Numbered from the stretch's first letter, positions 33,217-61,259 are shown. The stretch: 64,000 bases of DNA from Candidatus Thorarchaeota archaeon (GCA_004524445.1 SDNP01000009.1:26069-90068), one strand, 5' to 3'. Notes: generated from the letters alone by a model not told the origin. Numbers and translations: made by a program.

Positions 33217-35118
33217 CTATCTTCTCCTAAGCAGAATTATCACAACAAGGACAATTACTACGGCGGCAATGCCAATTCCGAGAAAAATCAGCATTGTTGG
33301 GTCGAGTACTAGAGCAGTATCAGTGGTGCCTGTACCAGCTCCCCATGAGATATCAAAATATGCTCTGACTGCAGTATTGCCATTGGCATCCGTTGCAATA
33401 ATGCTAAACGTGAGATTTCCGCTAGTCACATCTGGAATCTCCACTGAGTACTCATCGCCCATGGCAGACATATCCAGTTCAACACTAGTTGAGTCTGTGG
33501 TATAATTGAGCCTCACGGACTCTATTCCATATGGGTCTGTAACCCCTGCAGATATGGTGACGGTGTTTCCTTCACCTGGGTTTTCGGGTGTCCAACTAAC
33601 ATCCTTAATCCGTGGACCAATCTCATCTTCGTTGCTGATATTCTCGATAGACCTATTTGTTGTCGACCAATCAATGAAATTCTCTAAGAGCTGAATATTG
33701 CTAAAGATAGCAGTCTTCCCATAGTCAAAGTTGCTGAAGAAAGTGGTACCGGCAACAAGTAACCGCAAATCACCAATTTCCTCGACTGCAACCAAGGGGA
33801 TTTGATTACCATATACTCCATCATCCGTATCATCATAGATGACTTCTGGAGCGGGAGCTACCTGATCTGTCTGATATGCACTCTCTTCTCCATAGACAAT
33901 TGGTAATGTGGGATTTTCATCAATGAAGTAAAGGGAAGTCGGTGAGAACAATGTTAATGCTGATACACCATATGTCAAATCGTTTGTATCCTGAGGTTCT
34001 GGAATATCATAAATGTCATTGTACCAGAGTTGGTAGGTCCCGAGCATGTAGACATTATCGTCATTTATTCTTATGTCTGAACCAATTGCGTTCAGTATTT
34101 GATTTGGTCTTGCGTTGTCAACATATTCAGAGAAATCTCCTCTGGCAGTCAGAATCATAGACTTATTTCCGGTCGATGCCCAGTTTGAGATGGCAGTCAA
34201 TTCTGATGAAGTATATTCATCAAGTGCGCAGGTTGCAATGAACAGGTCCACATCAGAAAGGTCCTCGGTAGTAAATGATGTTGTTTGCTTTCTAAGCTCA
34301 TAGTGATTGCGTTCGAGTGTCTGTTCAATAGATGAAAGCTGATCCTCGCCTTGATAGTCGATGTAGTCATTCGTATGAGCATAGTCGATTAATGCCACAT
34401 GATCATATGTTATGGTAATATCTGGAGCTGAAATGGAATCTGTTATGGTATAGAAAAGAGAGAGAACCCCATCTACGGCCTTGAAGAGGCAGTTCTCCGT
34501 TATTTCTTTGACCTCCGGATCATCTAAGGCTCGCGAATCCTCATCATCATAGTGCGCAACTATTGTATCATAGAATTGATGAGAATACTCTGCATTCTCA
34601 ATGACAAGGTCAGTCACATTTTCAACAATAGATTCGGTTGGGTCATCAATCTCAAGTGAGCCAAGATTCTCATTTATGTCCTTTTCATAGCCGGAGTGCC
34701 CTGGCCAATAATCGTCAGTGTGCACCGGAATACACGGGTCCGAAAAGTAGTGAGTCAGTACTCCTGCAGCGAAGAAACCATCTTCCCAGTTTCCTGCAGT
34801 GAAGTTATCTCTGGTAAATTCAAACCACTCAGCTGCAGCCCATGGTGCATTGTAATCCCCTGTTTCCGGATAGTAGAGATGATTTTCCCAATCTTGCCAT
34901 ACTTGGTCCGGCGTTGTTGATCCAGTGATGAGTTCAGGCAAGTAATATTGAAACGCCTCCAACCAGCTGGAGTTCGATATGGCATTGACTGCGGTGTCAA
35001 CAATGTACATGTGGGTGGTCAATCCCCACGCACTGGCTGGCTGAGCACTTGGCAGAGTTATTGTCATTGGCACAAATGATAGCAACAAAACACAGAGAAG
35101 GACCTTGGATCTTTTCAT
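33217..35118 (-). CDS. Membrane-anchored zinc-dependent phospholipase C/P1-nuclease-family protein with DUF4350/GIFT-like and Ig-like domains
   Basis: Signal peptide ASA|WGLTTH; PD, ENH, HYFSD, PVH, HSGYE Zn ligands; LIDYAH domain; C-terminal TM followed by RRR. Confidence 0.75.
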   Translation of the reverse strand: MKRSKVLLCVLLLSFVPMTITLPSAQPASAWGLTTHMYIVDTAVNAISNSSWLEAFQYYLPELITGSTTPDQVWQDWENHLYYPETGDYNAPWAAAEWFEFTRDNFTAGNWEDGFFAAGVLTHYFSDPCIPVHTDDYWPGHSGYEKDINENLGSLEIDDPTESIVENVTDLVIENAEYSHQFYDTIVAHYDDEDSRALDDPEVKEITENCLFKAVDGVLSLFYTITDSISAPDITITYDHVALIDYAHTNDYIDYQGEDQLSSIEQTLERNHYELRKQTTSFTTEDLSDVDLFIATCALDEYTSSELTAISNWASTGNKSMILTARGDFSEYVDNARPNQILNAIGSDIRINDDNVYMLGTYQLWYNDIYDIPEPQDTNDLTYGVSALTLFSPTSLYFIDENPTLPIVYGEESAYQTDQVAPAPEVIYDDTDDGVYGNQIPLVAVEEIGDLRLLVAGTTFFSNFDYGKTAIFSNIQLLENFIDWSTTNRSIENISNEDEIGPRIKDVSWTPENPGEGNTVTISAGVTDPYGIESVRLNYTTDSTSVELDMSAMGDEYSVEIPDVTSGNLTFSIIATDANGNTAVRAYFDISWGAGTGTTDTALVLDPTMLIFLGIGIAAVVIVLVVIILLRRR

Positions 35119-35157
35119 ATTGGAACAAGGATAATATTGCCACAAATAAACTGTACG

Positions 35158-44737: not shown

Positions 44738-45394
44738 ATGATAGTCATGGACCTCAAGACACCAGAAGAGATACTTGACATGCTAGAGGGATATAACAAG
44801 ATTGTTCTCTTTGGTGACTCAGGATGTGCACAGCTTTGCGATGTGGGTGGCATTCTGCAGCTTGAAGATATGACTGATTTTCTTGAGGAAAATGGAAAGC
44901 AGGTTCTGGGGTACATTTTTGTGGAGGGCGGCATTTGTGATGTCAATGCAGTCAGTCGAGATATAAATGAACACTCAGAGATGATTGAAGAGGCTGATGC
45001 ATTCCTTATTCAGGCATGTGGGGTTGCTACTCAGATAACCACTGAATTGGTACCGGATAAGGAATCCTTTCCGGCAACAAATTCAACTTTTCTCGGAAAG
45101 ATGCCAGAACGGTTTCAGCATGAAGAAACCTGCGCGCTCTGTGGAAACTGCATTCTTCATTTGACAGGAGGAATCTGTCCAATTGCGCGATGCTCAAAGG
45201 GAATTCTTAATGGCCCGTGCGGTGGATCCATGGATGGGAAATGTGAACGTGATGATGAAACCGATTGTGTTTGGCAGCTAATATATGAACGTCTTAAGAA
45301 ATTGGGCAAGCTTGAGAATCTCAAGACGATATGGGAGATAAAGGATTGGAGTTTATCCCAAGGGCCCCGTTCTTTGACTCATGAGGAATTCTAG
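44738..45394 (+). CDS. metV: Methylenetetrahydrofolate reductase small Fe-S subunit
   Basis: GCAQLC, ACGV, CALCGNC, GGICPIARCSKGILNGPCGG, CVWQLIYERL. Confidence 0.88.
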   Translation: MIVMDLKTPEEILDMLEGYNKIVLFGDSGCAQLCDVGGILQLEDMTDFLEENGKQVLGYIFVEGGICDVNAVSRDINEHSEMIEEADAFLIQACGVATQITTELVPDKESFPATNSTFLGKMPERFQHEETCALCGNCILHLTGGICPIARCSKGILNGPCGGSMDGKCERDDETDCVWQLIYERLKKLGKLENLKTIWEIKDWSLSQGPRSLTHEEF

Positions 45395-45483
45395 CTCAAC
45401 TGATAAATCACGCTCCCTCTCCAAAGACATATGTATATGATTTGATTTCTGAGTGTAAAGAACATCGAATGGAGTTATCTGAT

Positions 45484-46416
45484 ATGACCAAGTCCCATCT
45501 TCGTACCATTCTCAATTCGGGTGATTTTGTCGTCTCAGGCGAGATTACGCCTCCCCATGGTAGCGACAAGAATTTGCTTTTGGAGCGGTTGAGCTTGGTC
45601 AAAGGCTATTGTGATGCAATTAATGTCACTGATAACGTTCGTGGCATTCCTACATTGAGCAGTCTTGTTGCTACATATCTGATTAAGCAAACCGGTCAAG
45701 AGCCAGTGATGCAGATGTCAGCAAGAGACCGCAATCGAATTCTCTTCGAAAGCGAGTTATATGGCGCTCACGCACTGGAGATTCCGAATGTTCTTTTTGT
45801 CACAGGTGATCACTCGACACTTGGCTCTCATCCTCAGACTAAGATGGTCTATGATGTTGACTCTATTCAAGCATTGGCTCTCGCTAAGCATCTTATGACA
45901 GGTCATGATTTTGCGGGTGATGAGCTGGAGGGAACACCTCAGTTCTATTTGGGGTCAACATTCAATCCCTATGCCGATCCCATGGAGATGCAAGTGCTAA
46001 GGACTCATAAGAAGCAAGAGGCTGGCGCAGAGTTCTTTCAGACTCAGGCAATATTTGATCCCGGGCGTTTCCGTGATTTCATCAAGGAACTTGGAACAAT
46101 CAAGGCAAAGATACTTGGCGGGATTATTCCCCTCAAAGGCCCTCGCATGGCACGTTTCATGAATCGTCGTATTCCAGGCATAAAAATTCCTGAGAGCATG
46201 ATTGAGCGTCTAGAACAAGCTGGAGAGGGCCTTAAAGGAAAGGAAAAAATCAAATCTGTGAGGGGCGAGGGTCTCTCAATCGCGCTAGAAACCATCGAAG
46301 CTATTAAGAAGACCCAAGGTGTAGATGGAATCCATATAATGGGGATTGGTTGGGAAGAAAGCATCCCAGAGTTGGTCGAACGCTCTGACCTATATCCGCG
46401 ACCAAGAGGAGACTAA
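45484..46416 (+). CDS. metF: Methylenetetrahydrofolate reductase
   Basis: EITPP, INVTDN, RDRNR, TGDH, GAEFFQTQ, GIHIM; start codon uncertain (45469 or 45484). Confidence 0.92.
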   Translation: MTKSHLRTILNSGDFVVSGEITPPHGSDKNLLLERLSLVKGYCDAINVTDNVRGIPTLSSLVATYLIKQTGQEPVMQMSARDRNRILFESELYGAHALEIPNVLFVTGDHSTLGSHPQTKMVYDVDSIQALALAKHLMTGHDFAGDELEGTPQFYLGSTFNPYADPMEMQVLRTHKKQEAGAEFFQTQAIFDPGRFRDFIKELGTIKAKILGGIIPLKGPRMARFMNRRIPGIKIPESMIERLEQAGEGLKGKEKIKSVRGEGLSIALETIEAIKKTQGVDGIHIMGIGWEESIPELVERSDLYPRPRGD

Positions 46417-46420
46417 ACAT

Positions 46421-47338
46421 ATGTTTGTATTCAAAAAGGAACAGCAGACCTTCGATTTCGGAGGAGTAACTATAGGTGGAAACCCTGGTGAGTTTCCTAC
46501 AGTCATGATTGGAGGCCTATTCTTCAAGTCTCAAGAGGTGGTCGAGGACGTGAAGAAGGGACTATTCAAGAAGGATTTGGCTAAGGAATGGGTCGACCTT
46601 GGAGTCCATATGAGTGATGAAACAGGTCATCCTCTCGTTATCCAAATATATGGAAGGACACCTGAGGCAATGGAGCGTCACATCTCATGGCTTGCAGATA
46701 ATTTCGACGGTCCTTTCATGTTTGAATCTACAATTTCTGCGGCTAGATTGAGAGGAATAGAATATTGTAGCGAAGCCGGACTTGAGGATCGGGCAATATA
46801 CAACAGCCTGAATCTCTCAACCAAAGATGCCGAAAAGAGTCTTCTCCAAGAAAAATCAATAGACAAGGCTGTTGTCTTAGGATGGTCTCCAAGAGCCACC
46901 AGTTTGAATGATAGAATGGAAACCATCACAGACATGATTGATGAAGCCAAGACACTTGGTATAACAAAGATGTTGATTGACCCAGCCACAATGCCTGTGG
47001 GTGCAGGATATGGGCTGGACTACCGTACTATTCTCACCATAAAGTCTGAATTGGGACTACCGACATGCCTGGGGCCTCATAATGCCCCTTCGGCTTGGAA
47101 GTTCCTAAGACGACCCGAGCTCAATACGCGAAGGACCCACTTAGCAGCAATAGTGGCATCTACTGCAGTAGCCCAGGTACTTGCCACAGACTGCATCATG
47201 TATGGCTCCATGAGACGAACAAAAGAGGTGTTTGCTGCCACATCATTGGTTGCAAATGCAATCGCCTCCGCTGCCGCCGAAGCAAACAGAACTTTAGGAC
47301 GGGAAGGAGAGTTGTTTGAACCTCCCACCTTTGAGTAG
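46421..47338 (+). CDS. mtrH: Pterin-binding methyltransferase MtrH-like (copy 1, divergent)
   Basis: MFVFKKEQ, IGGNPGEFPT, RAIYNS, LIDPA, HNAPSAW, MYG. Confidence 0.85.
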   Translation: MFVFKKEQQTFDFGGVTIGGNPGEFPTVMIGGLFFKSQEVVEDVKKGLFKKDLAKEWVDLGVHMSDETGHPLVIQIYGRTPEAMERHISWLADNFDGPFMFESTISAARLRGIEYCSEAGLEDRAIYNSLNLSTKDAEKSLLQEKSIDKAVVLGWSPRATSLNDRMETITDMIDEAKTLGITKMLIDPATMPVGAGYGLDYRTILTIKSELGLPTCLGPHNAPSAWKFLRRPELNTRRTHLAAIVASTAVAQVLATDCIMYGSMRRTKEVFAATSLVANAIASAAAEANRTLGREGELFEPPTFE

Positions 47339-47348
47339 GTGATGCACA

Positions 47349-48044
47349 ATGAGCAAAGATAGCAAATCACAATCTTGGCCTCCTGTCCCCGGTGACTTTG
47401 AAGTGGGAAACCCAGAGAAGAGCGTAGCAGTATGTACGCTGGGAAAGAAAATCAAAGTGGACGCTGACTACTGCATAATTGGCACTTGTAAAACAGAGAA
47501 CATCGGTATTGAACGTGTAGTAGTAAATGTCATTTCAAATCCTAATATTCGGTGCCTGATTCTATGCGGTCCGGAGGTGCCCGGACATCATACAGGGTCT
47601 TCTTTACGAAGTCTATACCATGATGGGGTAGATGAAACAAACAGGAAGATTTTGGGCGCTAAGGGGGCCATTCCATACATAGAAAACATACCACTCGAAG
47701 CTGTGGAGCGATTTAGGGAGCAAGTCTCTCTAGTAGACTTGATGAATGAATCAGACCCCAAGAAGATTACCGCAGCGGTGACAAAGGCAGAGGGAGAAAA
47801 TCCCGGACCCTTCGCAGATGGGCCAATGTGGGTGGATTTTGGAACAGGCAAGAAATCATCAACTGTCACCATCTTGTCAGGAGCAGTATCACTGATTCCT
47901 GAGTATAATTTCTCATTCAATCCTGCAACTGGATTAGTCGATGAAATTTCAAGCCACGCCAAAGTAGCACTTCACCCAAGCACCATTATTGTTGACATGA
48001 AAAATAACGAGAACGGGACTATTCTTGTAGGGAAGGAGATCTGA
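47349..48044 (+). CDS. mtrA: MtrA/MtxA-like corrinoid protein without a TM anchor
   Basis: WPPVPGDF, KTENIGIE, NPNIR, GPEVPGHHTG (cobalt-ligand His), IPYIEN. Confidence 0.9.
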   Translation: MSKDSKSQSWPPVPGDFEVGNPEKSVAVCTLGKKIKVDADYCIIGTCKTENIGIERVVVNVISNPNIRCLILCGPEVPGHHTGSSLRSLYHDGVDETNRKILGAKGAIPYIENIPLEAVERFREQVSLVDLMNESDPKKITAAVTKAEGENPGPFADGPMWVDFGTGKKSSTVTILSGAVSLIPEYNFSFNPATGLVDEISSHAKVALHPSTIIVDMKNNENGTILVGKEI

Positions 48045-48048
48045 TATC

Positions 48049-48984
48049 ATGTTTGTCTTCGAGAAAGAGCAGTATATCTACAATATTGGTAACACGCGGA
48101 TTGGTGGAACGAGAGGAGAGAATCCGACTGTCCTCGCTGGAACAATTTTCTATAGCGAACACAAAATAGTGGAGAATCCCAAGACCGGTGTGTTCAATCA
48201 GGAAAAGGCTGAAGAACTGATCAACGCACAAGATGAAATGTCTGAAGCTACCGGTATTCCCTCATTAGTGCATATTTTTTCTGAGTCAGAGAGAGCTATC
48301 CGCAAATACATAGACTTTGTAGCAGGTATCACAGACGCCCCTATCATAATCGACTCAACTAATGCCTCAGTGCGCATAATCGGACTCGAGCACGCTGAAG
48401 AAGTAGGAGTTCAGGACCGTTGCATCTACAACAGCATCAACCTTTCAATCACAGATGAGGAATTGCAGAGACTCAAGGATATACAGCATGAATGTGCGAT
48501 AGTACTGGCATTCAATCCACAGGACCCCAGCATATCAGGAAAACGAGCTGTCTTGGAGAACGGCATTGGTGAACTCGACAAAGGACTGCTTAGCCTATCT
48601 GAAGAACTGGGTGTGACTAAGCCGCTTATCGATACCGCAGTCACCGCCATGGGTGCTGGTGCGGGATCTGCGGCAGCTTTTACTTTCGTGTCAAAAATTC
48701 TCTATGGTCATCCCGTGGGGTCTGGAATTCATAATGGGCCTTCATCATGGTCATGGCTTAAGAAGTTCAAGAAGAAAAATCGTATGGCCTACAAGTCATG
48801 TGATGTTGCCTCTAGTCTGATTGTTCAGGTTCTGGGTGCTGACTATATCTTATATGGTCCAATTAGCAGTGCTCCTGAAGTCTTTCCAATCGTTGCAATG
48901 GGTGAGGTCTTTGCCGCCGAAGCGGCAAAACAGGAGTTCGGGCTTGAGCCAGTAGATGGTCATCCCTTCACAAAGCTATTGTAG
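48049..48984 (+). CDS. mtrH: Pterin-binding methyltransferase MtrH-like (copy 2)
   Basis: MFVFEKEQ, GENPTVLAGTIFY, IIDST, IYNSIN, LIDTA, GIHN, LYGPI. Confidence 0.9.
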   Translation: MFVFEKEQYIYNIGNTRIGGTRGENPTVLAGTIFYSEHKIVENPKTGVFNQEKAEELINAQDEMSEATGIPSLVHIFSESERAIRKYIDFVAGITDAPIIIDSTNASVRIIGLEHAEEVGVQDRCIYNSINLSITDEELQRLKDIQHECAIVLAFNPQDPSISGKRAVLENGIGELDKGLLSLSEELGVTKPLIDTAVTAMGAGAGSAAAFTFVSKILYGHPVGSGIHNGPSSWSWLKKFKKKNRMAYKSCDVASSLIVQVLGADYILYGPISSAPEVFPIVAMGEVFAAEAAKQEFGLEPVDGHPFTKLL

Positions 48985-48994
48985 GTGATGCCTT

Positions 48995-50410
48995 TTGGTG
49001 GCATCCAATTACCATCGAGTCCGACCGAGGAGTCTTGGTATCAGTTCTCTACGAATGGGTGCGTACTTCACTGTCGCCTCAGTAGAGCTGGGTAATACAA
49101 CGACGAAATGCATTATCTGTTCCACTAATCTCAAGACGGCTGAGATTTTTGAGATTGCCAAGGAAGTCCGGATGACCCGCACAGTACGAGCTCCAGAGGA
49201 TGGTGAGAAAGTATTCGGGAAAACTCTTACTGGGGTGTTTCTCACTAGGGACTCTGTTTCTGAACTAATCGAGGACATCCTGCTGTCTGCTCTCACAAAA
49301 GCTGGATTAGATATGGAACGAGATCTCCATTTTGTGGTTCGCTCCACCGGTGTTACTGCGGGATTTGCTGAACCTCATGAAGTTGATGCAATGGTGAGAG
49401 CATTGGCTGATGGATGCATCAAGGCTGGCGTACCCCCCAATCGAATGACTGCTGCACTTTCCCCTGAGAATCTTCCTCCCGGACTACAGGAATTTACTTG
49501 GCTGAAAAGAGTATATTTTGATGGTGCCGTTGCTAGTTGTCTTCCCCCTCCCACAACCACCCTTGTTGCCAATGAAATGGAGGGTGAATTAGTAACCGCA
49601 GGAATGAAGGGCGCTGCAAAAAGCACAAAGGCAGACTTCCGCAACCCCGTCATGACATTAGATTTCGGAACTACTTTGGCTGGACGGATAACTGATGACG
49701 AATTCCCCTACTGCAACACTATTGGCTCTTTCGTGGGTCTGGCAGGAGCTATACCTGATGCTATCGCCAGGGGCTCTGGTTTAGTGGATCAAAAAGAGGG
49801 AACGGCATTAGAATTACCCTTGATCGGTTCAGAGAGTAAGGTAAGTGACACGGTGATCGACCGGATTCATAAGGCAATCAGTGTTGAAATAGTGAAAGGC
49901 GACTGTGATCGATATGGAACAGTGCCAGTTAATGTGAATGCTGCACATGAATCCAGCGTGACGATGATTGGTGTTGATGTGGGGTCAAATGGTTCGAAGC
50001 TCTCCCTACTTGAAGAAATTGGCAAACAAATAACCGATGAATATGGTCCTACTCATTTGAAACCTGTACTAGATGAAGTTCAGGTTCACCTAGTTCAGAG
50101 GATTTTGACTCTTGCTGAAAAACAAAAACTCCTTTTGCCGCACACTGCACTAGGTGTCACAGGTCGTGCAATAACGACCGGGAATAAGCCGCAGATTCTC
50201 TCGAATAGTTTGAGGCTAAGCGATGGGAGGTTATGGACGAGTGAACATATTCTCTTGATTGTTGATGATGGTCTTGCTTTGGGCGCAGCTGTGGCTGCCA
50301 GATGCATGAATTCAATGGGTACTAGGCACAATCCAATGGGGGGCAGACAAGGTGACAGATGCATCATGGCGGAGAGAGAAAAAATGCAGCGAAACAGGTC
50401 TGATACATGA
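48995..50410 (+). CDS. Methanogenesis marker protein 14 (DUF2114), ASKHA-fold ATPase-like
   Basis: VASVELGNTTTKCI, FVVRSTGV, FDGAV, ANEMEGEL, DFRNP, DFGTTLAG, DDGLALGAA, ARCMNS. Confidence 0.85.
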   Translation: MVASNYHRVRPRSLGISSLRMGAYFTVASVELGNTTTKCIICSTNLKTAEIFEIAKEVRMTRTVRAPEDGEKVFGKTLTGVFLTRDSVSELIEDILLSALTKAGLDMERDLHFVVRSTGVTAGFAEPHEVDAMVRALADGCIKAGVPPNRMTAALSPENLPPGLQEFTWLKRVYFDGAVASCLPPPTTTLVANEMEGELVTAGMKGAAKSTKADFRNPVMTLDFGTTLAGRITDDEFPYCNTIGSFVGLAGAIPDAIARGSGLVDQKEGTALELPLIGSESKVSDTVIDRIHKAISVEIVKGDCDRYGTVPVNVNAAHESSVTMIGVDVGSNGSKLSLLEEIGKQITDEYGPTHLKPVLDEVQVHLVQRILTLAEKQKLLLPHTALGVTGRAITTGNKPQILSNSLRLSDGRLWTSEHILLIVDDGLALGAAVAARCMNSMGTRHNPMGGRQGDRCIMAEREKMQRNRSDT

Positions 50411-50456
50411 TTAGGAGCGTTTATCTCTACTTAAGACACAACAAAGCGAGATTCTT

Positions 50457-51239
50457 ATGATTGTCCAGCCAATTAAGACTCGAACCATAAGCGAGGACGA
50501 TAACTTTCTTGATGTTCTGTTTGAGGGACTTGAGAAAACCGGTTTCTCTATTGAAAACGGAGATATTCTTGGTATAGCTGAAACGCCGTTGGGTACAACA
50601 GAAGGGCGTGTTTTCAAACTCTCCGACATCACTCCAAGTAGGCGTGCACTTGAATTGGCATCAAGGCATGATTTGATACCCGAGGTTGCTGAGCTTGTTC
50701 TGCAGGAAGCTGATGAGATACTGGGAGGAATCCCCCATGTTCTTCTGACCATCAAGAACAACACCCTCATGGCAAATGCTGGCGTAGACAAATCTAACGT
50801 CCCTCCGGGCTACGCGTCACTTCTTCCCGTTGACTCAAAGAGTAGTGCTAATCGTGTTCGTAAAGAAGTATACGAACGAACAGGAAAACGGATTGGCGTA
50901 ATCATAATCGATAGCAGAACCCAGCCATTGCGATTGGGCAATATAGGAATGGCACTTGCAGTGTCTGGCTTTCATCCGGTTGTAGACGAGCGAGGAAAAC
51001 ACGACCTATTCGGAAACGAAATGAGAATCACGAGGAGAGCAGTGGCTGATAATCTGGCATCTGCCTGCACAGCTGTCATGGGCGAGTCCAGCGAGTCAAT
51101 TCCTGCCGCTATAATTAGAAACGCACCAGTTGAGCTCTCAGAAGAATCCTATGACTCATCCGTTATGTGGATTAGTCCTCAGGAATGTATGTACATGGCA
51201 ATCTTTGAACAATGGCGTAGGGGTTGTGGAGGAAACTAG
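50457..51239 (+). CDS. cofE: Coenzyme F420-0:L-glutamate ligase family
   Basis: ANAGVDKSN, IIDSRTQPLRLG, DLFG, AVADNLAS, MGES.E..P. Confidence 0.88.
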   Translation: MIVQPIKTRTISEDDNFLDVLFEGLEKTGFSIENGDILGIAETPLGTTEGRVFKLSDITPSRRALELASRHDLIPEVAELVLQEADEILGGIPHVLLTIKNNTLMANAGVDKSNVPPGYASLLPVDSKSSANRVRKEVYERTGKRIGVIIIDSRTQPLRLGNIGMALAVSGFHPVVDERGKHDLFGNEMRITRRAVADNLASACTAVMGESSESIPAAIIRNAPVELSEESYDSSVMWISPQECMYMAIFEQWRRGCGGN

Positions 51240-51369
51240 ACTATCAACACATGGTAGATCTTCTAGGCCAGGCGCGTGCTGCCGTCCCGAGTCCGTGCTC
51301 GAAAGAAAGAAAAGGGGAACTCATATCTCGATAACTACAGAGCATTCATCAAAAGCAGGGATTGATTAC

Positions 51370-52701
51370 TTGAGCGAAAAGGTTGTTCTGATCGATGCAT
51401 CAGTAGCAGGAGCATCAGGGGATATGATTCTATCTGCCCTAATTGATATCTTGCAGGATGATGACGCCGTTGTCCCAGTTGCAGCGAGTCTTCTCATATA
51501 CGATCCAGCTGTTCGCGTTCAAGTCTTCGAGAAAACCTTGGATGATATCTCTGGAAAACACCTTGAGATCGCCAAAGATGATAGTGTCAGATTCGATCCA
51601 TCCTCTCTCCGTGAGATAATCACTGTCCTTTCTGAAGAGCTCGAGCTTTCGCCTAAAGGAAAGAAGCTAGCCAAGGAAGCTCTTGAGCAAATCTTTAGAG
51701 CCGAATCCAGAGCTCATGATACTCCTATAGAGGAATTGCATCTTCACGAAACCGGCTCAATTGACACAATCCTTGACATTGCCGGTACGATGTATCTCTT
51801 GGAGAAAGCGGAGCTATTGGAAGACGCCCGTTTATTGTGTACAAGTGTGGCTGTTGGCAGCGGTACCATAGAAACTGAACATGGGGAGCTTGAAGTACCA
51901 GTCCCTGCAGTGGCTGAAATCATCGTTGAACACGAGATGCCCTTCCACAAGGGTGATGCAAAAACTGAAACACTGACCCCTACGGGCGCTGCGATATTGG
52001 CGACACTCGCCGAAGGCTATGTAGAGTCAAGAGATGCTTTTGAAGAAGAACAGAGAGGAAATGGATTCGGTAGTCGTGAGCTAGGCGATATTCCCAATGT
52101 TTTATCTATTTCAGTTGGAAAATTAGAGGAAAAACCACCAGAAGTCCAACCTGAGGAAACACCAACGGAAAAGGAGCCTCAAACCGAGAGGCAACCAACC
52201 AAGATAGAGGAGATGCCCATGGAAATAGGAAAATGGAATCAAGATGAAGTGATTGTTATCGAGGCCAATGTTGACGATGTTGACGGTGAAGTCCTTGGTA
52301 ATATGATCGATACCCTCATGTCCGACGGCATGGCACTTGATGTTGTCATTATCCCCGCATATGGGAAGAAAAACAGACCCTGCTATGTCGTCAAGGTGAT
52401 ATCTCCAATCAATCGGCTGGATAATATTGCAGAGATATTGATTAAAAATATTGGAACACTAGGCATTCGATATACTACATGGTCTAGGTTAAAGGCTCAG
52501 CGTGAAACCATCGTTACTCGGCTTGAAATCGATGGTGAACAGTACATGGTTCGCGTTAAGCTCTCCCGCGGTCCGGATGGCAGTATTGTCAACATCAAAC
52601 CTGAGGTAGATGACATAGTTACAGTATCACAGGCTACTGGCATACCAATACGAGAATTGAAACCCAGAGTAATTCTTCAGGCTCATGCAGTCACTGAATA
52701 A
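51370..52701 (+). CDS. larC: Nickel pincer cofactor nickel-insertion protein
   Basis: AGASGDMIL, HLHETGSID, HG.L.VP.PA, TPTGAAIL, EANVDD, KKNRP, TLGIR, KPE.DD; TTG start inferred. Confidence 0.9.
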   Translation: MSEKVVLIDASVAGASGDMILSALIDILQDDDAVVPVAASLLIYDPAVRVQVFEKTLDDISGKHLEIAKDDSVRFDPSSLREIITVLSEELELSPKGKKLAKEALEQIFRAESRAHDTPIEELHLHETGSIDTILDIAGTMYLLEKAELLEDARLLCTSVAVGSGTIETEHGELEVPVPAVAEIIVEHEMPFHKGDAKTETLTPTGAAILATLAEGYVESRDAFEEEQRGNGFGSRELGDIPNVLSISVGKLEEKPPEVQPEETPTEKEPQTERQPTKIEEMPMEIGKWNQDEVIVIEANVDDVDGEVLGNMIDTLMSDGMALDVVIIPAYGKKNRPCYVVKVISPINRLDNIAEILIKNIGTLGIRYTTWSRLKAQRETIVTRLEIDGEQYMVRVKLSRGPDGSIVNIKPEVDDIVTVSQATGIPIRELKPRVILQAHAVTE

Positions 52702-54967
52702 AGGGTTTTAGAGAGGGAAGTTGTTTTTCATCAAGCGATAAAGCATTGAGATACTTTGCGGGTATAAGATTTTCAAATGCCCTTTTACAGAGCTCCTCGT
52801 AGGCATCTGAGTCATAAGTTGCAGAATCATCAAGTAGCTCTACTGCTTTCGCGCGTCTTAGAGGATTAGGTGATTTTGTGTCTGTCAAGATATACCGCAC
52901 TTTTTGACCTGCATGTATTTCTCTTCCTGACTCTACTAGTTGCTTTGCCACCATTGCTGCCCGTGAGGTTGTCTGGTACTCGTAGGGTTCACGCGTGAGT
53001 CTTGAGTGTAGTACAAGATCTCGTAGGTCCACATCTTCTTCCCTGAGTTTTGCTGAGAACTCTTTACAAACCGAATATGCTTTGGGAATCCTCTCAAGAA
53101 ACCCTTCCTTGTCCCTTCCCTTTGCAAGTATCTTTATCATTTCCGACTGGCAGTCGCCGACATACAGACAGGTATCTCGTCGCCGGGTTTCTATTCCTCG
53201 AGTTTTGATTGCCCCATTCTGATATACACCGTAGTAGCGGTTCAGGGGTGCAATGGAGGGATGAAGTCTGGATGAAGGAATTACCATCCAACGATATACT
53301 CCCTTCAAGGACATATCGATGTCAACTGCTTTGCTTACTCTTCTACAAAACTCTTGTACATGGTCAAAGTCAATCTCGTTTTCGGTTTTCACCCATAGAG
53401 AATCCACGATTCCATGTACGGTCTGAAACCCCATCTCTTGACCTATCTCCTGGGTCTTGAGCAGTACTTCACGAGCAAGTGCACAGACCGCAGTGTGCGC
53501 CTCGACACGCCCAAATTTCGCATTTTTGAACCCCAGGTACCCAAAACAAGAAACAAGCACTCCCTTCAGAGTGTTTTGCATTATCGCGTATTTCTCGGTG
53601 TCCTCCCCCTCTGCTATCAAACGTTTGAATTCGTTTCGTTTACGAACCACTAGTTCGAGCGACTTTGCAATGAGACCTCTTTTGCGATTACATAGACGGA
53701 AATTAAGTTCGGGGACTTCAATACAATATTTGTAGTCATAGGGGCAGTCCATTCGCATGCAGATTGTTTCGGGACTAATATTTCGAGTCACCATTAGTGT
53801 AGGGTACATAGAGGAGAAGTCTACCTCTGCAACGTGTTCGTAGATATCCGGTCTTGGTTGAAAGATAAGGCCCCCTCTGTCAATGTTTGCAAGTTCGTTT
53901 ATTGACTTGAGAAACTCGGGATTTCTCTTCACTGGTGGAATGAGCACGTCCATCTGGTGGGCTGTATAGAACTGAACTGAGGCGTTGACGCTACCAATAG
54001 ACATCCGTGCTACTCGTTGAGGTGGAGCAAAGGCCAGTCGACACCCTTCAATAACACCCTCGATTCCTGAAGGCCCACGGAACTTGCTGTCAGACCTGTC
54101 AATGTGGATTCTGCCATTGAACATCACTTGGTTGCCAGATCTATACACAATCTGATTATACTGCCAAAACGACGTTGGTTCGCGATAGGTCACATTCAGT
54201 GGGGTGCTATCTCTTGAGAAAACGAGTTCTACCTCATTTACCTTTGCTCTCAGTGTCAGATACCGGAACACATGGTCATCCCCTCCTCGACTGACAATGA
54301 TGTCTGGATCGATGGTATCAATAGCATTCTGAAGTGATAGGAGGGTCTCTTTCTCGGTCCGTTCTCTCAATTTGATGATTCTCCCCTGATGATAGACTTC
54401 GATGTGACTGATTGGATCTTCTAGGCGTGGAAATACTCGTCCAGATGCGACGTATACCTCAATCCCTATCTCCTCCAGATCTGGAATGTCATATTCGGCA
54501 TCTTCTCGGTTATCAAGGCACTTGAGTGCTGTAACTCTCTCTCCCTCGGACTCGAACTCTATTCTCCCGAAAGCAAAGATCTCCTCAGTCAAAAAGAACT
54601 GCTGGACTGGACCGATTTCTGCATGATAGACCACAGCGTCAGGTAATTTCTCTAGGTCCCTTGCAACTTCTCTTTGTTGTCCGACATCAGTGAAGACTCG
54701 TAAGACACGAGATTTCTCTTCATCATACACACTGGTATACTTCCGGACTATATCCACTCCTGCCACATGAGAATGTTCTCGTATTGTGTGAAACAATCGT
54801 TGGTCTGTCCACTCTTCAGCATCTAGAAGGCTGGTATGCACAAAGAGTGCTGGCTTGAATTTGTCATAGACGTACCCCTGCGTCCTTCCGTTCCTCTTGA
54901 TCCAGAGAATCAATGCTTCTCTGTCATGGTCTACGTTTGCATCGAGGAGCCATCCCTGTTTCTTCAT
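52691..54967 (-). CDS. polB2: Family B DNA polymerase, PolB2 group
   Basis: DFSSMYP, K..LVSCFGYLG, motif C HGIVDS, RGIE.RR; degenerate exonuclease motif. Confidence 0.88.
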   Translation of the reverse strand: MKKQGWLLDANVDHDREALILWIKRNGRTQGYVYDKFKPALFVHTSLLDAEEWTDQRLFHTIREHSHVAGVDIVRKYTSVYDEEKSRVLRVFTDVGQQREVARDLEKLPDAVVYHAEIGPVQQFFLTEEIFAFGRIEFESEGERVTALKCLDNREDAEYDIPDLEEIGIEVYVASGRVFPRLEDPISHIEVYHQGRIIKLRERTEKETLLSLQNAIDTIDPDIIVSRGGDDHVFRYLTLRAKVNEVELVFSRDSTPLNVTYREPTSFWQYNQIVYRSGNQVMFNGRIHIDRSDSKFRGPSGIEGVIEGCRLAFAPPQRVARMSIGSVNASVQFYTAHQMDVLIPPVKRNPEFLKSINELANIDRGGLIFQPRPDIYEHVAEVDFSSMYPTLMVTRNISPETICMRMDCPYDYKYCIEVPELNFRLCNRKRGLIAKSLELVVRKRNEFKRLIAEGEDTEKYAIMQNTLKGVLVSCFGYLGFKNAKFGRVEAHTAVCALAREVLLKTQEIGQEMGFQTVHGIVDSLWVKTENEIDFDHVQEFCRRVSKAVDIDMSLKGVYRWMVIPSSRLHPSIAPLNRYYGVYQNGAIKTRGIETRRRDTCLYVGDCQSEMIKILAKGRDKEGFLERIPKAYSVCKEFSAKLREEDVDLRDLVLHSRLTREPYEYQTTSRAAMVAKQLVESGREIHAGQKVRYILTDTKSPNPLRRAKAVELLDDSATYDSDAYEELCKRAFENLIPAKYLNALSLDEKQLPSLKPFIQ

Positions 54968-59473: not shown

Positions 59474-60040
59474 ATGGTTACAGCCCTGTTTAAGATAGTT
59501 CTCATGGGCGACGGCTCGGTAGGCAAGACCAGTCTGAGGCGTACGTACATGGGTGAAGGCTTCAAGGCTCAGTATATGATCACTATCGGTGCTGATTTTG
59601 CAGTCAAGAAGATGCAGTTGGAAGGCGGGCACGACGTCAGCATTCAGATTTGGGACCTGGCAGGTCAGGAGCATTTCAAGAGCGTTAGGTCAACATTCTA
59701 CAAAGGGGCACAGGGTGCACTTGCGGTCTACTCCACAGTTGAGAGGCAGTCATACGAGAACATCAAGAACTGGTTGGACGAGTGCTGGACAAATGCAGGG
59801 AAGAAAATTCCCATAGTTCTTATTGGTAATAAAATCGATCTTAGACAGCAGTTCGAGGACAATCCAGCCATGAGACAGACAATTGTTACCACTGAGGAGG
59901 GGCAGCGGCTGGCTGATGATATAGCATCAAACGGCGTGCATACGTCATTCATCGAAACGTCTGCTAAAACCGGTGAAAATGTTGAAGCATCCTTTCTGGA
60001 GCTAGCAATAAAGATTCTTGAGGCTGGCGGCTTGGCCTAA
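59474..60040 (+). CDS. Rab-like small GTPase
   Basis: GDGSVGKTS, TIGADF, IWDLAGQ, FYKGA, GNKID, ETSAK. Confidence 0.93.
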   Translation: MVTALFKIVLMGDGSVGKTSLRRTYMGEGFKAQYMITIGADFAVKKMQLEGGHDVSIQIWDLAGQEHFKSVRSTFYKGAQGALAVYSTVERQSYENIKNWLDECWTNAGKKIPIVLIGNKIDLRQQFEDNPAMRQTIVTTEEGQRLADDIASNGVHTSFIETSAKTGENVEASFLELAIKILEAGGLA

Positions 60041-60131
60041 TCGAGATTTCTGCTCCTTTGAGTCTGTCTTCATAATGTTTTTAGATGCACCCAAATCAGT
60101 CAGTACTAGTATTGATTCTGCGGTGACTTGG

Positions 60132-61259
60132 ATGGAAGACAATCAACTGTCATTGTTCTTACAGAGAAAGACATTGAAGCCCGAGGCTAAGCATGGTGAC
60201 GAGATTACAAGACGCTTCTCAATGAACAAAGTTGGCAGGATGTTTGCTGCCGCCATGCAAGATAGGACCATCCGTCTCTATGATGCCAAGACATGCGACG
60301 AGATGCAACGTGTACAGGATGAACATCTAACAACAGCCATTGACTTCAGTCCCCGCGGAGATATTGTAGCAACAGGAAGTGTGGGTCGCCTTGTCAAACT
60401 CTGGGATATCAAATCGGGGGATTTGATGGGTACTATGGAAGGGCATGACTATCCCGTTCTCTCCCTCTCCTTCTCGCCTGATGGAGATAAATTGGTCTCC
60501 GGGAGCGGAGACACCACACTGCGAATTTGGAATGTTGATAATCAAAGATTCATTCGAGAGATGAAAGGACACACGCTCTATGTTGTGAGTTGTGATTGGG
60601 ACCCTGTAGGAGACCGAATTGTCTCATCATCAATCGATTCGACTATTCGCGAGTGGAATGCATCTAGTGGTGAATTGCTTGCCGAACATGAAGATCACCG
60701 GACCGCTGTTCATCAGGTCCTATTCAATAAGGATGGTTCACTCTTGGCGTCTGGCTCCTCGGACCACAGCATCATTCTTTGGAACACAGATGGTGAACTC
60801 TCTCCTATGGAAACGCTCATGGGACATAATGAGGAAGTACGTGCCATCTCATTCAGCAATAATGGAAAGTACTTGGCCTCTGGATCTAGCGACAAAGAAC
60901 TCTATGTGTGGTCGGTAGATGACTATAGCATTCAAGGTCAAGCGAGGACCGCGGGGGAAATTGATGGATTGGAGTGGTATCCAAATGAGCTTGCCTTCAT
61001 CAGTTCTGATGGGACCGGTGCGATTCTTCGCTGGGATGTACGTGAACTTGAAGCCATGTTGAGTCCGTTTCAGAATCTGCTTGATGAAATCAAGGCAAAT
61101 GAGGACGAGAGCAAAAAGACTGAATTCATTGAACGCTTCAAGGAGATACAATCACAGTATGATGAAGAAACATTGAGAGACAAGCGACTCTTCTACATTA
61201 TGTGGCAGTGTAAGAGAGAATTAGGCTTACTAAAAGGGAAGATTCGAAAAAGACGATAA
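60132..61259 (+). CDS. WD40 beta-propeller protein with C-terminal helical domain
   Basis: Repeats such as GH..PVLSLSFSPDGDKLVSGSGDTTLRIWN; start after GCGGTGA. Confidence 0.92.
   Translation: MEDNQLSLFLQRKTLKPEAKHGDEITRRFSMNKVGRMFAAAMQDRTIRLYDAKTCDEMQRVQDEHLTTAIDFSPRGDIVATGSVGRLVKLWDIKSGDLMGTMEGHDYPVLSLSFSPDGDKLVSGSGDTTLRIWNVDNQRFIREMKGHTLYVVSCDWDPVGDRIVSSSIDSTIREWNASSGELLAEHEDHRTAVHQVLFNKDGSLLASGSSDHSIILWNTDGELSPMETLMGHNEEVRAISFSNNGKYLASGSSDKELYVWSVDDYSIQGQARTAGEIDGLEWYPNELAFISSDGTGAILRWDVRELEAMLSPFQNLLDEIKANEDESKKTEFIERFKEIQSQYDEETLRDKRLFYIMWQCKRELGLLKGKIRKRR

What the first reader, a model, noticed from the sequence alone, without database searches (positions are those of the whole stretch)
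44738..51239. Candidate soluble corrinoid methyl relay: metV-metF-mtrH-mtrA-mtrH-marker 14-cofE
Seen: seven co-directional genes, with gaps of only 4-10 nt from metF through marker 14. MtrA keeps its cobalt-ligand His but has no TM anchor, it is flanked by two different MtrH genes, and mtrB-G and mcr are absent from the window. Known: MetVF interconverts methylene- and methyl-H4folate in acetogens, and MtrH transfers methyl groups between a pterin and the MtrA corrinoid. Inference: methyl-H4F to MtrH to Co-MtrA to the second MtrH to H4MPT (or the reverse), bridging folate and methanopterin C1 pools without Na+ pumping. Isolated mtrA/mtrH and mtxAH genes are known, but I do not know of this full arrangement being characterised.
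Basis: partly seen in the sequence, partly recalled or inferred. Interest (0 to 1): 0.9.

Follow-up and report, generated by a model that had tools for sequence, protein, structure and literature searches.

The report
Soluble Mtr-derived methyl-transfer operon, Thorarchaeia
A Thorarchaeota (Asgard) genome carries a conserved, membrane-free remnant of the methanogens' vitamin-B12 methyl-transfer machine, in which two different methyltransferases flank one cobalt carrier next to a methylene-pterin reductase; it may pass methyl groups between the folate and methanopterin pools, but that is not shown.

Summary
Gaps from metF to marker 14 are 4-10 nt. The genome is a Thorarchaeote with no McrA, MtrD or MtrE. 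H1-A-H2-marker 14 occurs in all 16 genera of the family. metF is single-copy and nearly always directly upstream.

The genome encodes both a full H4MPT branch (Fwd to Mer) and a folate branch (Fhs, FolD, MetVF), so a folate/H4MPT methyl relay is possible. In support, H1 is a Thorarchaeia-specific clade with invariant changes in the pterin pocket, whereas H2 keeps the canonical residues. Against it, H1 nests among canonical H4MPT-type MtrH proteins, canonical MtrH is a homodimer (so H1/H2 could be a same-carrier heterodimer), and two genomes keep the trio without MetF.

New leads: marker 14 has an ASKHA ATPase fold with four conserved cysteines, and the cofE is a paralogue in a family that lacks FolC.

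Thorarchaeial MtrAH plus marker 14 is already published (Adam et al. 2022). The scan also found this operon earlier in at least 13 other genomes, with the same verdict.

The parts
44738..45394 (+). metV: the Cys-rich small subunit of MetFV-type methylene-pterin reductase.
   Evidence: PF12225/DUF5981, 117 bits. It lies directly upstream of metF in 10 of 20 related loci, is separated from it by a 2-5 kb insert in 3, and is not found in 4.
45442..46416 (+). metF: MTHFR-family reductase. The start is TTG 45442 or ATG 45469.
   Evidence: PF02219, 108 bits. It is single-copy in 75 of 86 family genomes and its coordinates fall next to the MtrA hits. It lies directly upstream of mtrH1 in 17 of the 19 loci that reach that far.
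46421..47338 (+). mtrH1: a divergent, Thorarchaeia-specific MtrH-family pterin methyltransferase.
   Evidence: PF02007, 252 bits; TIGR01114 is below its cut-off. Only one full-length 50%-identity cluster exists in 1.8 billion representatives, and the next hits are 36% identical. It is monophyletic (support 100) on a long stem. G32, E103 and the lost K242/K243 patch are invariant; Q75, N129, D196, H229 and N230 are kept.
47349..48044 (+). mtrA: a soluble corrinoid carrier. Residues 1-160 form the cobamide domain, H80 is the cobalt ligand, and a beta-rich C-terminal tail replaces the membrane helix.
   Evidence: PF04208, 195 bits. PDB 5laa/8q3v alignments. No TM segment. In the AF2 model pLDDT is above 90 for residues 11-160 and 48-66 for the tail. 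The tail is conserved over its full length in 78 of 85 family genomes.
48049..48984 (+). mtrH2: a canonical-type MtrH.
   Evidence: TIGR01114, 396 bits, above its cut-off. 266 bits to M. mazei MtrH 9qtp. Sister to the methanogen MtrH clade. T32, D103, N129, D196, H229, N230 and the basic tail patch are kept.
48995..50410 (+). Methanogenesis marker 14 (DUF2114; m26 of Adam et al.): an ASKHA-fold putative ATPase.
   Evidence: TIGR03285, 580 bits. AF2 model with pLDDT 76.7. VIA Z is 15-17 to many ASKHA ATPases, including the benzoyl-CoA-reductase ATPase subunit 9gai_C and the HgdC-type activator 4eht; RACo 3zyy also appears in Foldseek. Phosphate and adenosine motifs and four Cys are invariant. 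It has the same phyletic pattern as the trio.
50457..51239 (+). cofE-like gamma-glutamyl ligase paralogue.
   Evidence: PF01996, 233 bits. TIGR01916 scores 191.6 (cut-off 180.65), against 247 for a second copy at G000:C7:20710-21354. In G310 it lies between mtrH2 and marker 14. FolC is absent from 86 of 86 family genomes.

Best explanation
This is a conserved Thorarchaeial operon for a membrane-free, Mtr-derived corrinoid methyltransferase.

Shown: all parts are present and intact, the order is conserved, membrane Mtr and Mcr are absent, and both H4MPT- and folate-dependent C1 enzymes are present.

Inferred mechanism, step by step:
1. MetVF interconverts methylene- and methyl-H4folate.
2. MtrH1, the remodelled Thorarchaeia-specific paralogue translationally coupled to metF, moves the methyl group between methyl-H4folate and the Co(I) cobamide on soluble MtrA.
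3. Canonical MtrH2 moves it between methyl-Co(III)-MtrA and H4MPT.

The net reaction would be CH3-H4F + H4MPT <-> H4F + CH3-H4MPT, with no Na+ pumping. H1 and H2 probably form the heterodimeric counterpart of the canonical MtrH homodimer, with MtrA tethered through its beta-rich tail.

Marker 14 is proposed to be the ATP-dependent (possibly Fe-S) factor that returns oxidised Co(II)-MtrA to Co(I). The cofE paralogue is proposed to glutamylate a pterin cofactor, possibly folate. The physiological direction and purpose are open.
For: - Anatomy and tight coupling.
- No McrA, MtrE or MtrD.
- The trio plus marker 14 occurs in all 16 genera of the family and in one further family (G310), and nowhere else among about 314 other Asgard genomes.
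- The block moves as a unit: it is inverted relative to its flanks in G324.
- The whole block was lost together with metVF in the single-contig genome G369, leaving a 36-residue marker-14 stub.
- metF is single-copy and adjacent.
- Both carriers' enzymes coexist: Fhs in 80 of 86 genomes, Mch in 80 of 86, FolD in 5 of 5, and an Fwd-Ftr-Mch-Mtd-Mer cluster in this genome.
- Mer and MetF co-occur in 35 of 86 genomes, so MetF is not simply replacing Mer.
- H1 keeps the catalytic pterin residues but has invariant T32G and D103E and has lost the basic patch proposed to bind the H4MPT tail. H2 keeps all of these (residue roles from PMC12774963).
- No MetE or MetH-type homocysteine domain is present to consume methyl-H4F, which leaves MtrH1 as the only evident consumer.
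- The cluster-linked CofE paralogue and the family-wide lack of FolC give the cluster a folate flavour. A CofE homologue is known to replace FolC (PMC1971073).
Against: - H1 lies inside the well-supported clade that holds the canonical H4MPT-type MtrH. It shares that clade's Q75 and H229 rather than the D75 and S229 of folate-using MtgA, and the G32/E103 combination has no precedent in any enzyme of known specificity.
- Canonical MtrH is a homodimer (PMC12774963), so two paralogues need not mean two carriers.
- Archaeal MetF of the ANME-1/Asgard type has been proposed to act on H4MPT (PMC9012536).
- G320 and G324 keep an intact H1-A-H2-marker 14 block with no MTHFR anywhere in the genome. G324 also lacks a true Mer and CODH/ACS.
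- This genome has no CODH/ACS and no Mcr, so joining two complete C1 branches at the methyl level has no obvious pay-off.
- There is no biochemical or expression evidence.
Confidence: 0.4

Rival explanations
1. Same-carrier soluble Mtr remnant. MtrH1 and MtrH2 form a heterodimer descended from the canonical MtrH homodimer, and both (or only one) use H4MPT. MetVF works on methylene-H4MPT alongside or instead of Mer. CH3-Co-MtrA then hands the methyl group to an unidentified acceptor, such as a thiol like CoM or another corrinoid system, or receives it from one.
For: - MtrH is a homodimer with two opposed active sites in the M. mazei complex (PMC12774963).
- H1 and H2 both fall in the canonical clade.
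- The ANME-1/Asgard-type MetF has been proposed to use H4MPT.
- The trio persists without MetF in G320 and G324.
- Published readings treat Thorarchaeial MtrAH as a generic methyltransferase feeding the Wood-Ljungdahl pathway (PMC9635834).
Against: - No MtrE, the CoM-methylating subunit, and no ComA for CoM synthesis in five genomes.
- MetF coexists with a true Mer in 35 genomes.
- The invariant pocket remodelling of H1 would be unexplained.
- No acceptor enzyme is encoded in the operon.
Confidence: 0.3
2. Split, MetH-like methionine synthase. MetVF makes methyl-H4F, an MtrH loads MtrA, and methyl-Co-MtrA donates to homocysteine through an unrecognised enzyme. Marker 14 would replace the AdoMet-dependent reactivation domain.
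For: - No MetE (PF01717) and no homocysteine S-methyltransferase domain (PF02574) in five genomes between 86 and 98% complete.
- metF is classically linked to methionine synthesis.
- The methyl donor for archaeal methionine synthesis is thought to be an unidentified corrinoid protein (stated in PMC9012536).
Against: - No homocysteine-binding component is present in or near the operon.
- Both MtrH copies keep their pterin-binding residues, so neither looks repurposed.
- A biosynthetic role would hardly need two MtrH proteins.
- The organisms may simply import methionine.
Confidence: 0.12
3. Entry port for methylated substrates. MtrA is methylated by an unlinked substrate-specific methyltransferase, and the MtrH proteins pass the methyl group into one or both pterin pools for oxidation or, where CODH/ACS exists, for acetyl-CoA synthesis.
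For: - This is the general hypothesis for MtrAH in non-methanogens (PMC9635834, PMC8407382).
- The genome has a separate MtrH3 next to a B12-binding corrinoid protein, which shows methylotrophic capacity.
Against: - That role is already covered by MtrH3 with its own corrinoid protein.
- No MT1-type gene is in the operon.
- The conserved link is to MetF, not to a substrate methyltransferase.
Confidence: 0.1
4. A decaying, functionless remnant of ancestral methanogenesis.
For: - Occasional frameshift-like breaks: mtrH1 in G317 and mtrH2 in G338.
- Loss of the block in G369.
Against: - Intact reading frames in almost all of 78 genomes across 16 genera at 50-70% identity.
- Catalytic residues and the cobalt-ligand His are invariant, and translational coupling is retained.
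Confidence: 0.03

Closest known systems
Thorarchaeial 'canonical MtrAH' plus marker m26 (DUF2114), described as methanogenesis remnants by Adam et al. 2022 (Sci Adv, PMC9635834)
   Same: It is the same lineage and the same mtrA, canonical mtrH and DUF2114 genes, with no other Mtr subunits. The authors note that m26 is tied to Mtr by distribution, phylogeny and synteny.
   Different: That paper does not mention MetF: the term occurs 0 times in the main text and supplement. In the text I could search it also does not mention a second, divergent MtrH upstream of MtrA, the cofE paralogue, or a two-carrier reading.
Energy-conserving Mtr complex MtrABCDEFGH of methanogens (PDB 9QTS M. mazei, 8Q3V M. 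marburgensis)
   Same: It has a homologous MtrA cobamide domain with a His ligand, a homologous MtrH with the same pterin residues, and marker 14 co-distributed with it.
   Different: Here there are no MtrB-G subunits, no MtrA membrane helix, no CoM-methylating MtrE and therefore no Na+ pumping. There are two non-identical MtrH proteins instead of a homodimer, and the operon is fused to metVF.
MtxXAH of Methanosarcinales and stand-alone soluble MtrAH pairs (Methanomassiliicoccales 'MALP', Bathyarchaeia, Sifarchaeia/Jordarchaeia, the Atabey-/Freyarchaeia MtrAH fusion)
   Same: These also pair a soluble MtrA-like corrinoid protein with an MtrH-like methyltransferase of unknown physiological role. 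A folate-using MtrH was proposed for MALP (PMC6147122).
   Different: Those systems have one MtrH per MtrA, or a fusion, and have no marker 14 and no MetVF link. There is no MtxX here. The H-A-H layout was seen only in Thorarchaeia and G310.
MtgABC / MtaABC-type three-component corrinoid methyltransferases (MtgA of D. hafniense, PDB 6SK4)
   Same: MtgA is an MtrH-family methylcobamide:H4F methyltransferase. The logic of two half-reactions around one corrinoid carrier is the same.
   Different: The carrier there is a B12-binding-domain protein (PF02310), not MtrA, and the first methyltransferase is substrate-specific rather than a second pterin enzyme. MtgA is only about 30% identical to H1 and H2 and lies outside their clade.
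MetFV-type methylene-H4F reductases of acetogens, and the ANME-1/uncultured-archaea MetFV
   Same: MetF and MetV are adjacent. Chadwick et al. report that Asgard MetF groups with the ANME-1 type.
   Different: There are no Hdr/Mvh or RnfC2 partner genes nearby. Unlike ANME-1, these genomes keep Fhs, FolD and often Mer. The carrier specificity is untested.
ASKHA-fold reactivators of B12 and radical enzymes (RACo, RamA, DdrA/PduG, HgdC/BcrAD 'archerases')
   Same: Marker 14 has the ASKHA fold with intact nucleotide motifs and conserved cysteines, and it is genetically tied to a corrinoid protein.
   Different: There is no sequence-family membership: only DUF2114 is hit, even at E<=10. The structural matches are generic to the superfamily (Z 13-17 for many unrelated ASKHA proteins). 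No activity has been shown.

Membership tests
Mtr complex (N5-methyl-H4MPT:CoM methyltransferase) | MtrA cobamide domain with a His lower ligand | tested here: met
   PF04208, 195 bits. H80 aligns with His84 of 8q3v and is invariant in 18 orthologues.
Mtr complex (N5-methyl-H4MPT:CoM methyltransferase) | C-terminal transmembrane helix of MtrA | tested here: not met
   The maximum 19-residue hydropathy is 1.24 and lies inside the core domain. The tail is polar and beta-rich.
Mtr complex (N5-methyl-H4MPT:CoM methyltransferase) | Membrane subunits MtrB-G, including the CoM-methylating, Na+-binding MtrE | tested here: not met
   PF04206 (MtrE) and PF04207 (MtrD) gave no match in G000 or four relatives, while the controls matched. 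MtrB, C, F and G were not searched.
Mtr complex (N5-methyl-H4MPT:CoM methyltransferase) | MtrH with the conserved pterin residues D103, N129, D196 and N230 | tested here: met
   H2 has all four. H1 has E103 with the other three.
Thorarchaeial MtrAH + m26 remnant (Adam et al. 2022) | Thorarchaeial genome with canonical-type MtrA and MtrH, adjacent DUF2114, and no Mcr | tested here: met
   Source names read 'Candidatus Thorarchaeota'. H2 is sister to methanogen MtrH. Marker 14 lies 10 nt downstream. There is no McrA.
MtxXAH | Phosphotransacetylase-like MtxX gene in the cluster | tested here: not met
   None of the seven genes or their flanks (hflX, larC) belongs to that family. The rest of the genome was not searched.
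MetFV-type methylene-H4F reductase | MTHFR-family MetF next to DUF5981/MetV | tested here: met
   PF02219 and PF12225 lie in adjacent genes.
MetFV-type methylene-H4F reductase | Acts on H4folate rather than H4MPT | not testable with these tools
   The only indications are indirect: Fhs and FolD are present, and MetF coexists with Mer in 35 genomes.
Three-component corrinoid methyltransferase (MT1-CoP-MT2) | B12-binding-domain corrinoid protein (PF02310) and a substrate-specific MT1 | tested here: not met
   The carrier has the MtrA fold and both transferases are MtrH-family. A true system of this kind lies elsewhere, with MtrH3 at G000:C9.
RACo/RamA-type reductive activators of corrinoid proteins (for marker 14) | ASKHA ATPase domain | tested here: met
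   AF2 model. Z is 15-17 to ASKHA proteins. RACo 3zyy appears at Foldseek E 3e-6. The nucleotide motifs are invariant.
RACo/RamA-type reductive activators of corrinoid proteins (for marker 14) | Fe-S cluster domain and sequence-family membership | tested here: inconclusive
   Four conserved Cys (C19, C121, C417, C436) are present but form no recognisable cluster motif. No Pfam hit other than DUF2114 appears at E<=10.
CofE (F420-0:gamma-glutamyl ligase) | Score above the TIGR01916 cut-off | tested here: met
   It scores 191.6 against a cut-off of 180.65, but a second paralogue in the genome scores 247.
CofE-like folate glutamyl ligase (TIGR04132 / Chlamydia CT611 type) | Score above the TIGR04132 cut-off | tested here: not met
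   It scores 103.6 against a cut-off of 350, and the G310 copy scores 138. This fails the membership test only. The functional idea rests on FolC being absent from 86 of 86 genomes.

The most novel reading that the evidence does not exclude
The operon encodes the first known enzyme system that exchanges methyl groups directly between tetrahydrofolate and tetrahydromethanopterin. It would do so through a heterodimer of two differently specialised MtrH proteins and a soluble MtrA. Marker 14 would be the long-sought ATP-dependent reductive activator of the Mtr cobamide, and therefore of Mtr in all methanogens.
Probability: 0.2. Interest if true: 0.85.

Novelty: new variant of a known kind. Interest (0 to 1): 0.6.

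Why it matters
There are three reasons.

1. If the two MtrH proteins have different carrier specificities, this would be a direct methyl-level link between the bacterial-type (folate) and archaeal-type (methanopterin) C1 pathways. That bears on how Asgard archaea run hybrid Wood-Ljungdahl or C1 metabolism.

2. Marker 14 is conserved in all Mtr-containing methanogens and has no known function. ATP-dependent reductive activation of Mtr was described biochemically decades ago (from my own knowledge: Kengen et al. 1988) without a gene being assigned. A four-protein soluble system is a far easier place to test this than the 650-kDa membrane complex.

3. The family has folate enzymes but no FolC. 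The operon-linked CofE paralogue is a concrete candidate for the missing ligase.

Tried and rejected
- Complex prediction of MtrA with marker 14 gave no verdict. The score was 0.08 against a mark of 0.32 and no controls were run. This is not evidence either way.
- Fold searches for marker 14 returned only superfamily-level ASKHA matches and picked out no specific relative. Pfam at E<=10 gave nothing beyond DUF2114.
- I looked for a folate-type signature in MtrH1 by comparing it with MtgA (6sj8) and with 119 family members. Position 25 (F/Y/N) proved uninformative, and H1's G32/E103 pair has no counterpart of known specificity.
- Cluster-name look-ups of the nearest non-Thorarchaeial MtrH clusters gave mostly generic names. 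Their contexts showed single MtrH genes or MtrA-MtrH pairs, never H-A-H.
- 'MetF as a Mer replacement' is rejected as the sole explanation, because 35 genomes have both.
- 'Feeds CODH/ACS' is rejected as the general role, because CdhD is confined to 5 of 16 genera and is absent from this genome.
- 'Methylates CoM' is disfavoured, because there is no MtrE and no ComA. Alternative CoM biosynthesis routes were not searched.
- PDB sequence searches for MetF and MetV found only distant relatives or none.

Full report
**Observation.**
- metV: PF12225.
- metF: PF02219.
- mtrH1: a divergent MtrH. PF02007 gives 252 bits, but the equivalog model TIGR01114 gives 247.6, below its cut-off of 271.4.
- mtrA: PF04208.
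- mtrH2: a canonical MtrH. TIGR01114 gives 396 bits.
- Methanogenesis marker 14: TIGR03285/DUF2114, 580 bits.
- A CofE-family ligase.

From the metF stop to the marker-14 start the gaps are 4, 10, 4 and 10 nt, each preceded by a GGAG or GGTGAT ribosome-binding site. Longer AT-rich spacers precede metV, metF and cofE.

MtrA has no transmembrane segment. It keeps the cobalt-ligand histidine, which aligns with His84 of the M. marburgensis protein and is invariant in 18 orthologues. In an AlphaFold model the cobamide domain is confident (pLDDT above 90). Residues 165-231 form a low-confidence, beta-rich tail in place of the membrane helix.

**Organism and genome background.** Database names for the marker-14 orthologues identify the lineage as Thorarchaeota, in agreement with earlier scan notes. 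The assembly is 90% complete.
- It has no McrA, MtrE or MtrD.
- It has one MtrA and three MtrH genes. The third MtrH sits beside a B12-binding-domain corrinoid protein and a ferredoxin-like protein on another contig, which is a conventional corrinoid methyltransferase set.
- It encodes a complete H4MPT methyl branch in one cluster: Mer, Mtd, Mch, Ftr and Fwd subunits.
- It also encodes the folate enzymes Fhs and FolD.
- It has no CODH/ACS: CdhD is absent.

**Conservation.**
- The anchorless MtrA type, matched over its full length including the tail, is present in 78 of 85 other genomes of the family and in every one of its 16 genera. Elsewhere in the phylum only the N-terminal domain matches, inside roughly 500-residue fusions.
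- In 20 loci from 14 genera the order tgtA(-) / hflX, metV, metF, mtrH1, mtrA, mtrH2, marker 14, cofE, larC recurs.
- mtrH1-mtrA-mtrH2 is invariant. Marker 14 follows in all 19 loci that extend that far. metF is directly upstream in 17 of the 19 loci that reach it.
- MTHFR is single-copy in 75 of 86 genomes and lies at this locus.
- Because the flanks are also collinear, plain synteny within one family is weak evidence of linkage. Three events are more telling:
  - In G324 the H1-A-H2-marker 14 block is inverted as a unit relative to its flanks.
  - In the single-contig genome G369 the block and metVF are gone from the genome. Only a 36-residue marker-14 stub remains, next to cofE and larC.
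  - In G310, from a different family, the trio recurs, followed by cofE and then marker 14.
- Marker 14 has exactly the distribution of the trio: 79 of 85 family genomes plus G310, and none of about 314 other Asgard genomes.

**The two MtrH proteins.**
- They share 35% identity.
- Against 1.8 billion cluster representatives, MtrH1 has a single full-length relative cluster (66% identity). After that the score drops from 460 to 188 bits, where canonical methanogen MtrH appears.
- In a 119-sequence tree, ThorH1 is monophyletic (support 100) on a long stem, and ThorH2 is monophyletic (99) and sister to methanogen MtrH. Both lie inside one supported clade (99) that excludes MtrH3 and most other family members.
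- So H1 is not a bacterial folate-type import. It is a fast-evolved or ancient paralogue of the canonical type.
- I mapped the pterin-site residues named for M. mazei MtrH (PMC12774963) onto the alignment. H2 keeps T32, D103, N129, D196, H229, N230 and the basic R239/K242/K243 patch that those authors propose binds the H4MPT tail. All twelve ThorH1-clade sequences in the alignment keep Q75 (E75 in one), N129, D196, H229 and N230, but have G32 and E103 and lack K242/K243.
- The pocket is therefore conserved but remodelled. This argues against a dead subunit and for altered substrate recognition.
- It is not a folate signature. Folate-using MtgA has S32, D75, D103 and S229, and nothing of known specificity shares H1's combination.

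**Does the relay make sense?**

*For:*
- Both carriers' enzymes coexist family-wide: Fhs in 80 of 86 genomes and Mch in 80 of 86.
- MetF coexists with a true Mer in 35 genomes, so it is not simply a Mer substitute as proposed for ANME-1.
- No MetE or MetH-type homocysteine domain exists to use methyl-H4F. That leaves the translationally coupled MtrH1 as its only visible consumer.

*Against:*
- Canonical MtrH is a homodimer with opposed active sites, so an H1/H2 heterodimer on one carrier explains the two genes.
- G320 and G324 keep the block with no MTHFR. G324 also lacks a true Mer and CODH/ACS.
- CODH/ACS occurs in only 5 of 16 genera. In this genome a methyl-level bridge would merely join two complete branches, with no Mcr or ACS sink.

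I therefore rate the relay as the single most likely reading at about 0.4, and the same-carrier remnant at about 0.3.

**Marker 14.** The AlphaFold model (pLDDT 76.7) has an ASKHA fold.
- The best VIA matches (Z 15-17) include ATP-driven electron activators: the benzoyl-CoA-reductase ATPase subunit 9gai_C and the HgdC-type activator 4eht. They also include many unrelated kinases and Kae1.
- The B12-enzyme reactivase DdrA scores Z 13, and RACo appears in Foldseek.
- The phosphate-1, phosphate-2 and adenosine motifs are invariant. Four cysteines are also invariant, and they are conserved in the distant G310 and metagenomic homologues. Two of the cysteines lie in a strongly conserved but poorly modelled C-terminal loop.
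- A non-Thorarchaeial contig also has mtrH followed by marker 14.
- Adam et al. already tied this marker (their m26) to Mtr.
- A role in ATP-dependent maintenance of the MtrA cobamide is a reasoned inference and has not been shown. I found no paper that characterises the protein.

**The cofE gene.**
- Each genome checked has at least two CofE-family genes.
- The copy on contig C7 is the better CofE (TIGR01916, 247 bits). The operon copy scores 191.6 and scores relatively higher on the folate-linked CofE-like model TIGR04132: 103.6 against 72.7, and 138 for the G310 copy. All of these are far below that model's cut-off.
- FolC is absent from all 86 family genomes.
- A chlamydial CofE homologue complements an E. 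coli folC mutant (PMC1971073).
- The operon copy is therefore a candidate pterin or folate glutamyl ligase. Its retention in G369 after the block was lost suggests a general cofactor role rather than one specific to the module.

**Comparison with what is known.**
- Soluble MtrAH pairs and fusions in non-methanogens are widely reported, with speculative roles.
- Thorarchaeial canonical MtrAH plus DUF2114 is explicitly published (PMC9635834).
- In the library available to me I found no description of the second divergent MtrH, the fixed MetVF link, the cofE paralogue or the two-carrier proposal.
- This scan has met the same operon in at least 13 other genomes. Four follow-ups reached the same verdict: observation confirmed, interpretation partly supported.
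- I class it as a new variant of a known kind.

**Limits.**
- The complex prediction gave no verdict.
- Absences rest on profile searches of incomplete MAGs.
- The tree is unrooted, uses a quick search, and has mostly unnamed representatives.
- Carrier specificity cannot be read from sequence.

Noticed in passing
G000:C9:63990-69141 (L062:3990-9141): A third MtrH (302 aa) sits next to a B12-binding-domain corrinoid protein (216 aa), a protein with two 4Fe-4S motifs (287 aa) and a 707-aa protein with no Pfam match. This looks like a conventional corrinoid methyltransferase set whose substrate-specific component may be the unassigned protein.
   Followed up: partly
G000:C9:50133-58919 (L061:6133-14919): A compact H4MPT methyl-branch cluster holds Mer, Mtd, Mch, an FwdC-like protein, Ftr, an FwdB-like protein and an FwdA-like protein. 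An FdhD gene and an acetyl-CoA synthetase gene lie upstream. The genome has neither Mcr nor CODH/ACS.
   Followed up: partly
G000, G386, G313, G320, G324 (whole genomes): No MetE (PF01717) and no homocysteine S-methyltransferase domain (PF02574) is found in five Thorarchaeial genomes between 86 and 98% complete. Either they are methionine auxotrophs or their methionine synthase is of an unrecognised kind.
   Followed up: no
G000:C7:20710-21354 (L074:6639-7484, - strand): A second, better-scoring CofE paralogue lies next to topoisomerase VI subunit B. FolC is absent from all 86 genomes of the family, although Fhs and FolD are present.
   Followed up: partly
G369:C1:476195-476302 (L072:8195-8302): A 36-residue C-terminal stub of marker 14 remains beside cofE and larC in a single-contig genome that has lost metVF, mtrH1, mtrA and mtrH2. 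It is the scar of a deletion or rearrangement.
   Followed up: partly
L040, L044, L048, L052 (G343, G367, G315, G317): In the four loci without a detectable metV, the MetF is markedly more divergent from the window's (43-54% identity, against 56-88% elsewhere). This may reflect a different MetF subtype or a replacement.
   Followed up: no
window 51130-52701; L064:2921-4156: A LarC-type nickel-insertion gene follows the operon throughout the family. A LarC-like gene also lies about 2 kb from a stand-alone MtrH in an unrelated methanogen-like metagenome contig. This may be coincidence.
   Followed up: no
L071:1851-4048: A metagenome contig from outside the Thorarchaeial clusters carries a canonical-type mtrH (49% identical to H2) followed directly by a marker-14 homologue (48%), with no mtrA upstream.
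   Followed up: no
window 60018-61259, 52691-54967 and 33217-35145: Other window genes include a 413-aa WD40 beta-propeller protein with strong matches to eukaryote-type propeller families, a family-B DNA polymerase, and a 642-aa protein with a zinc-dependent phospholipase C domain.
   Followed up: no
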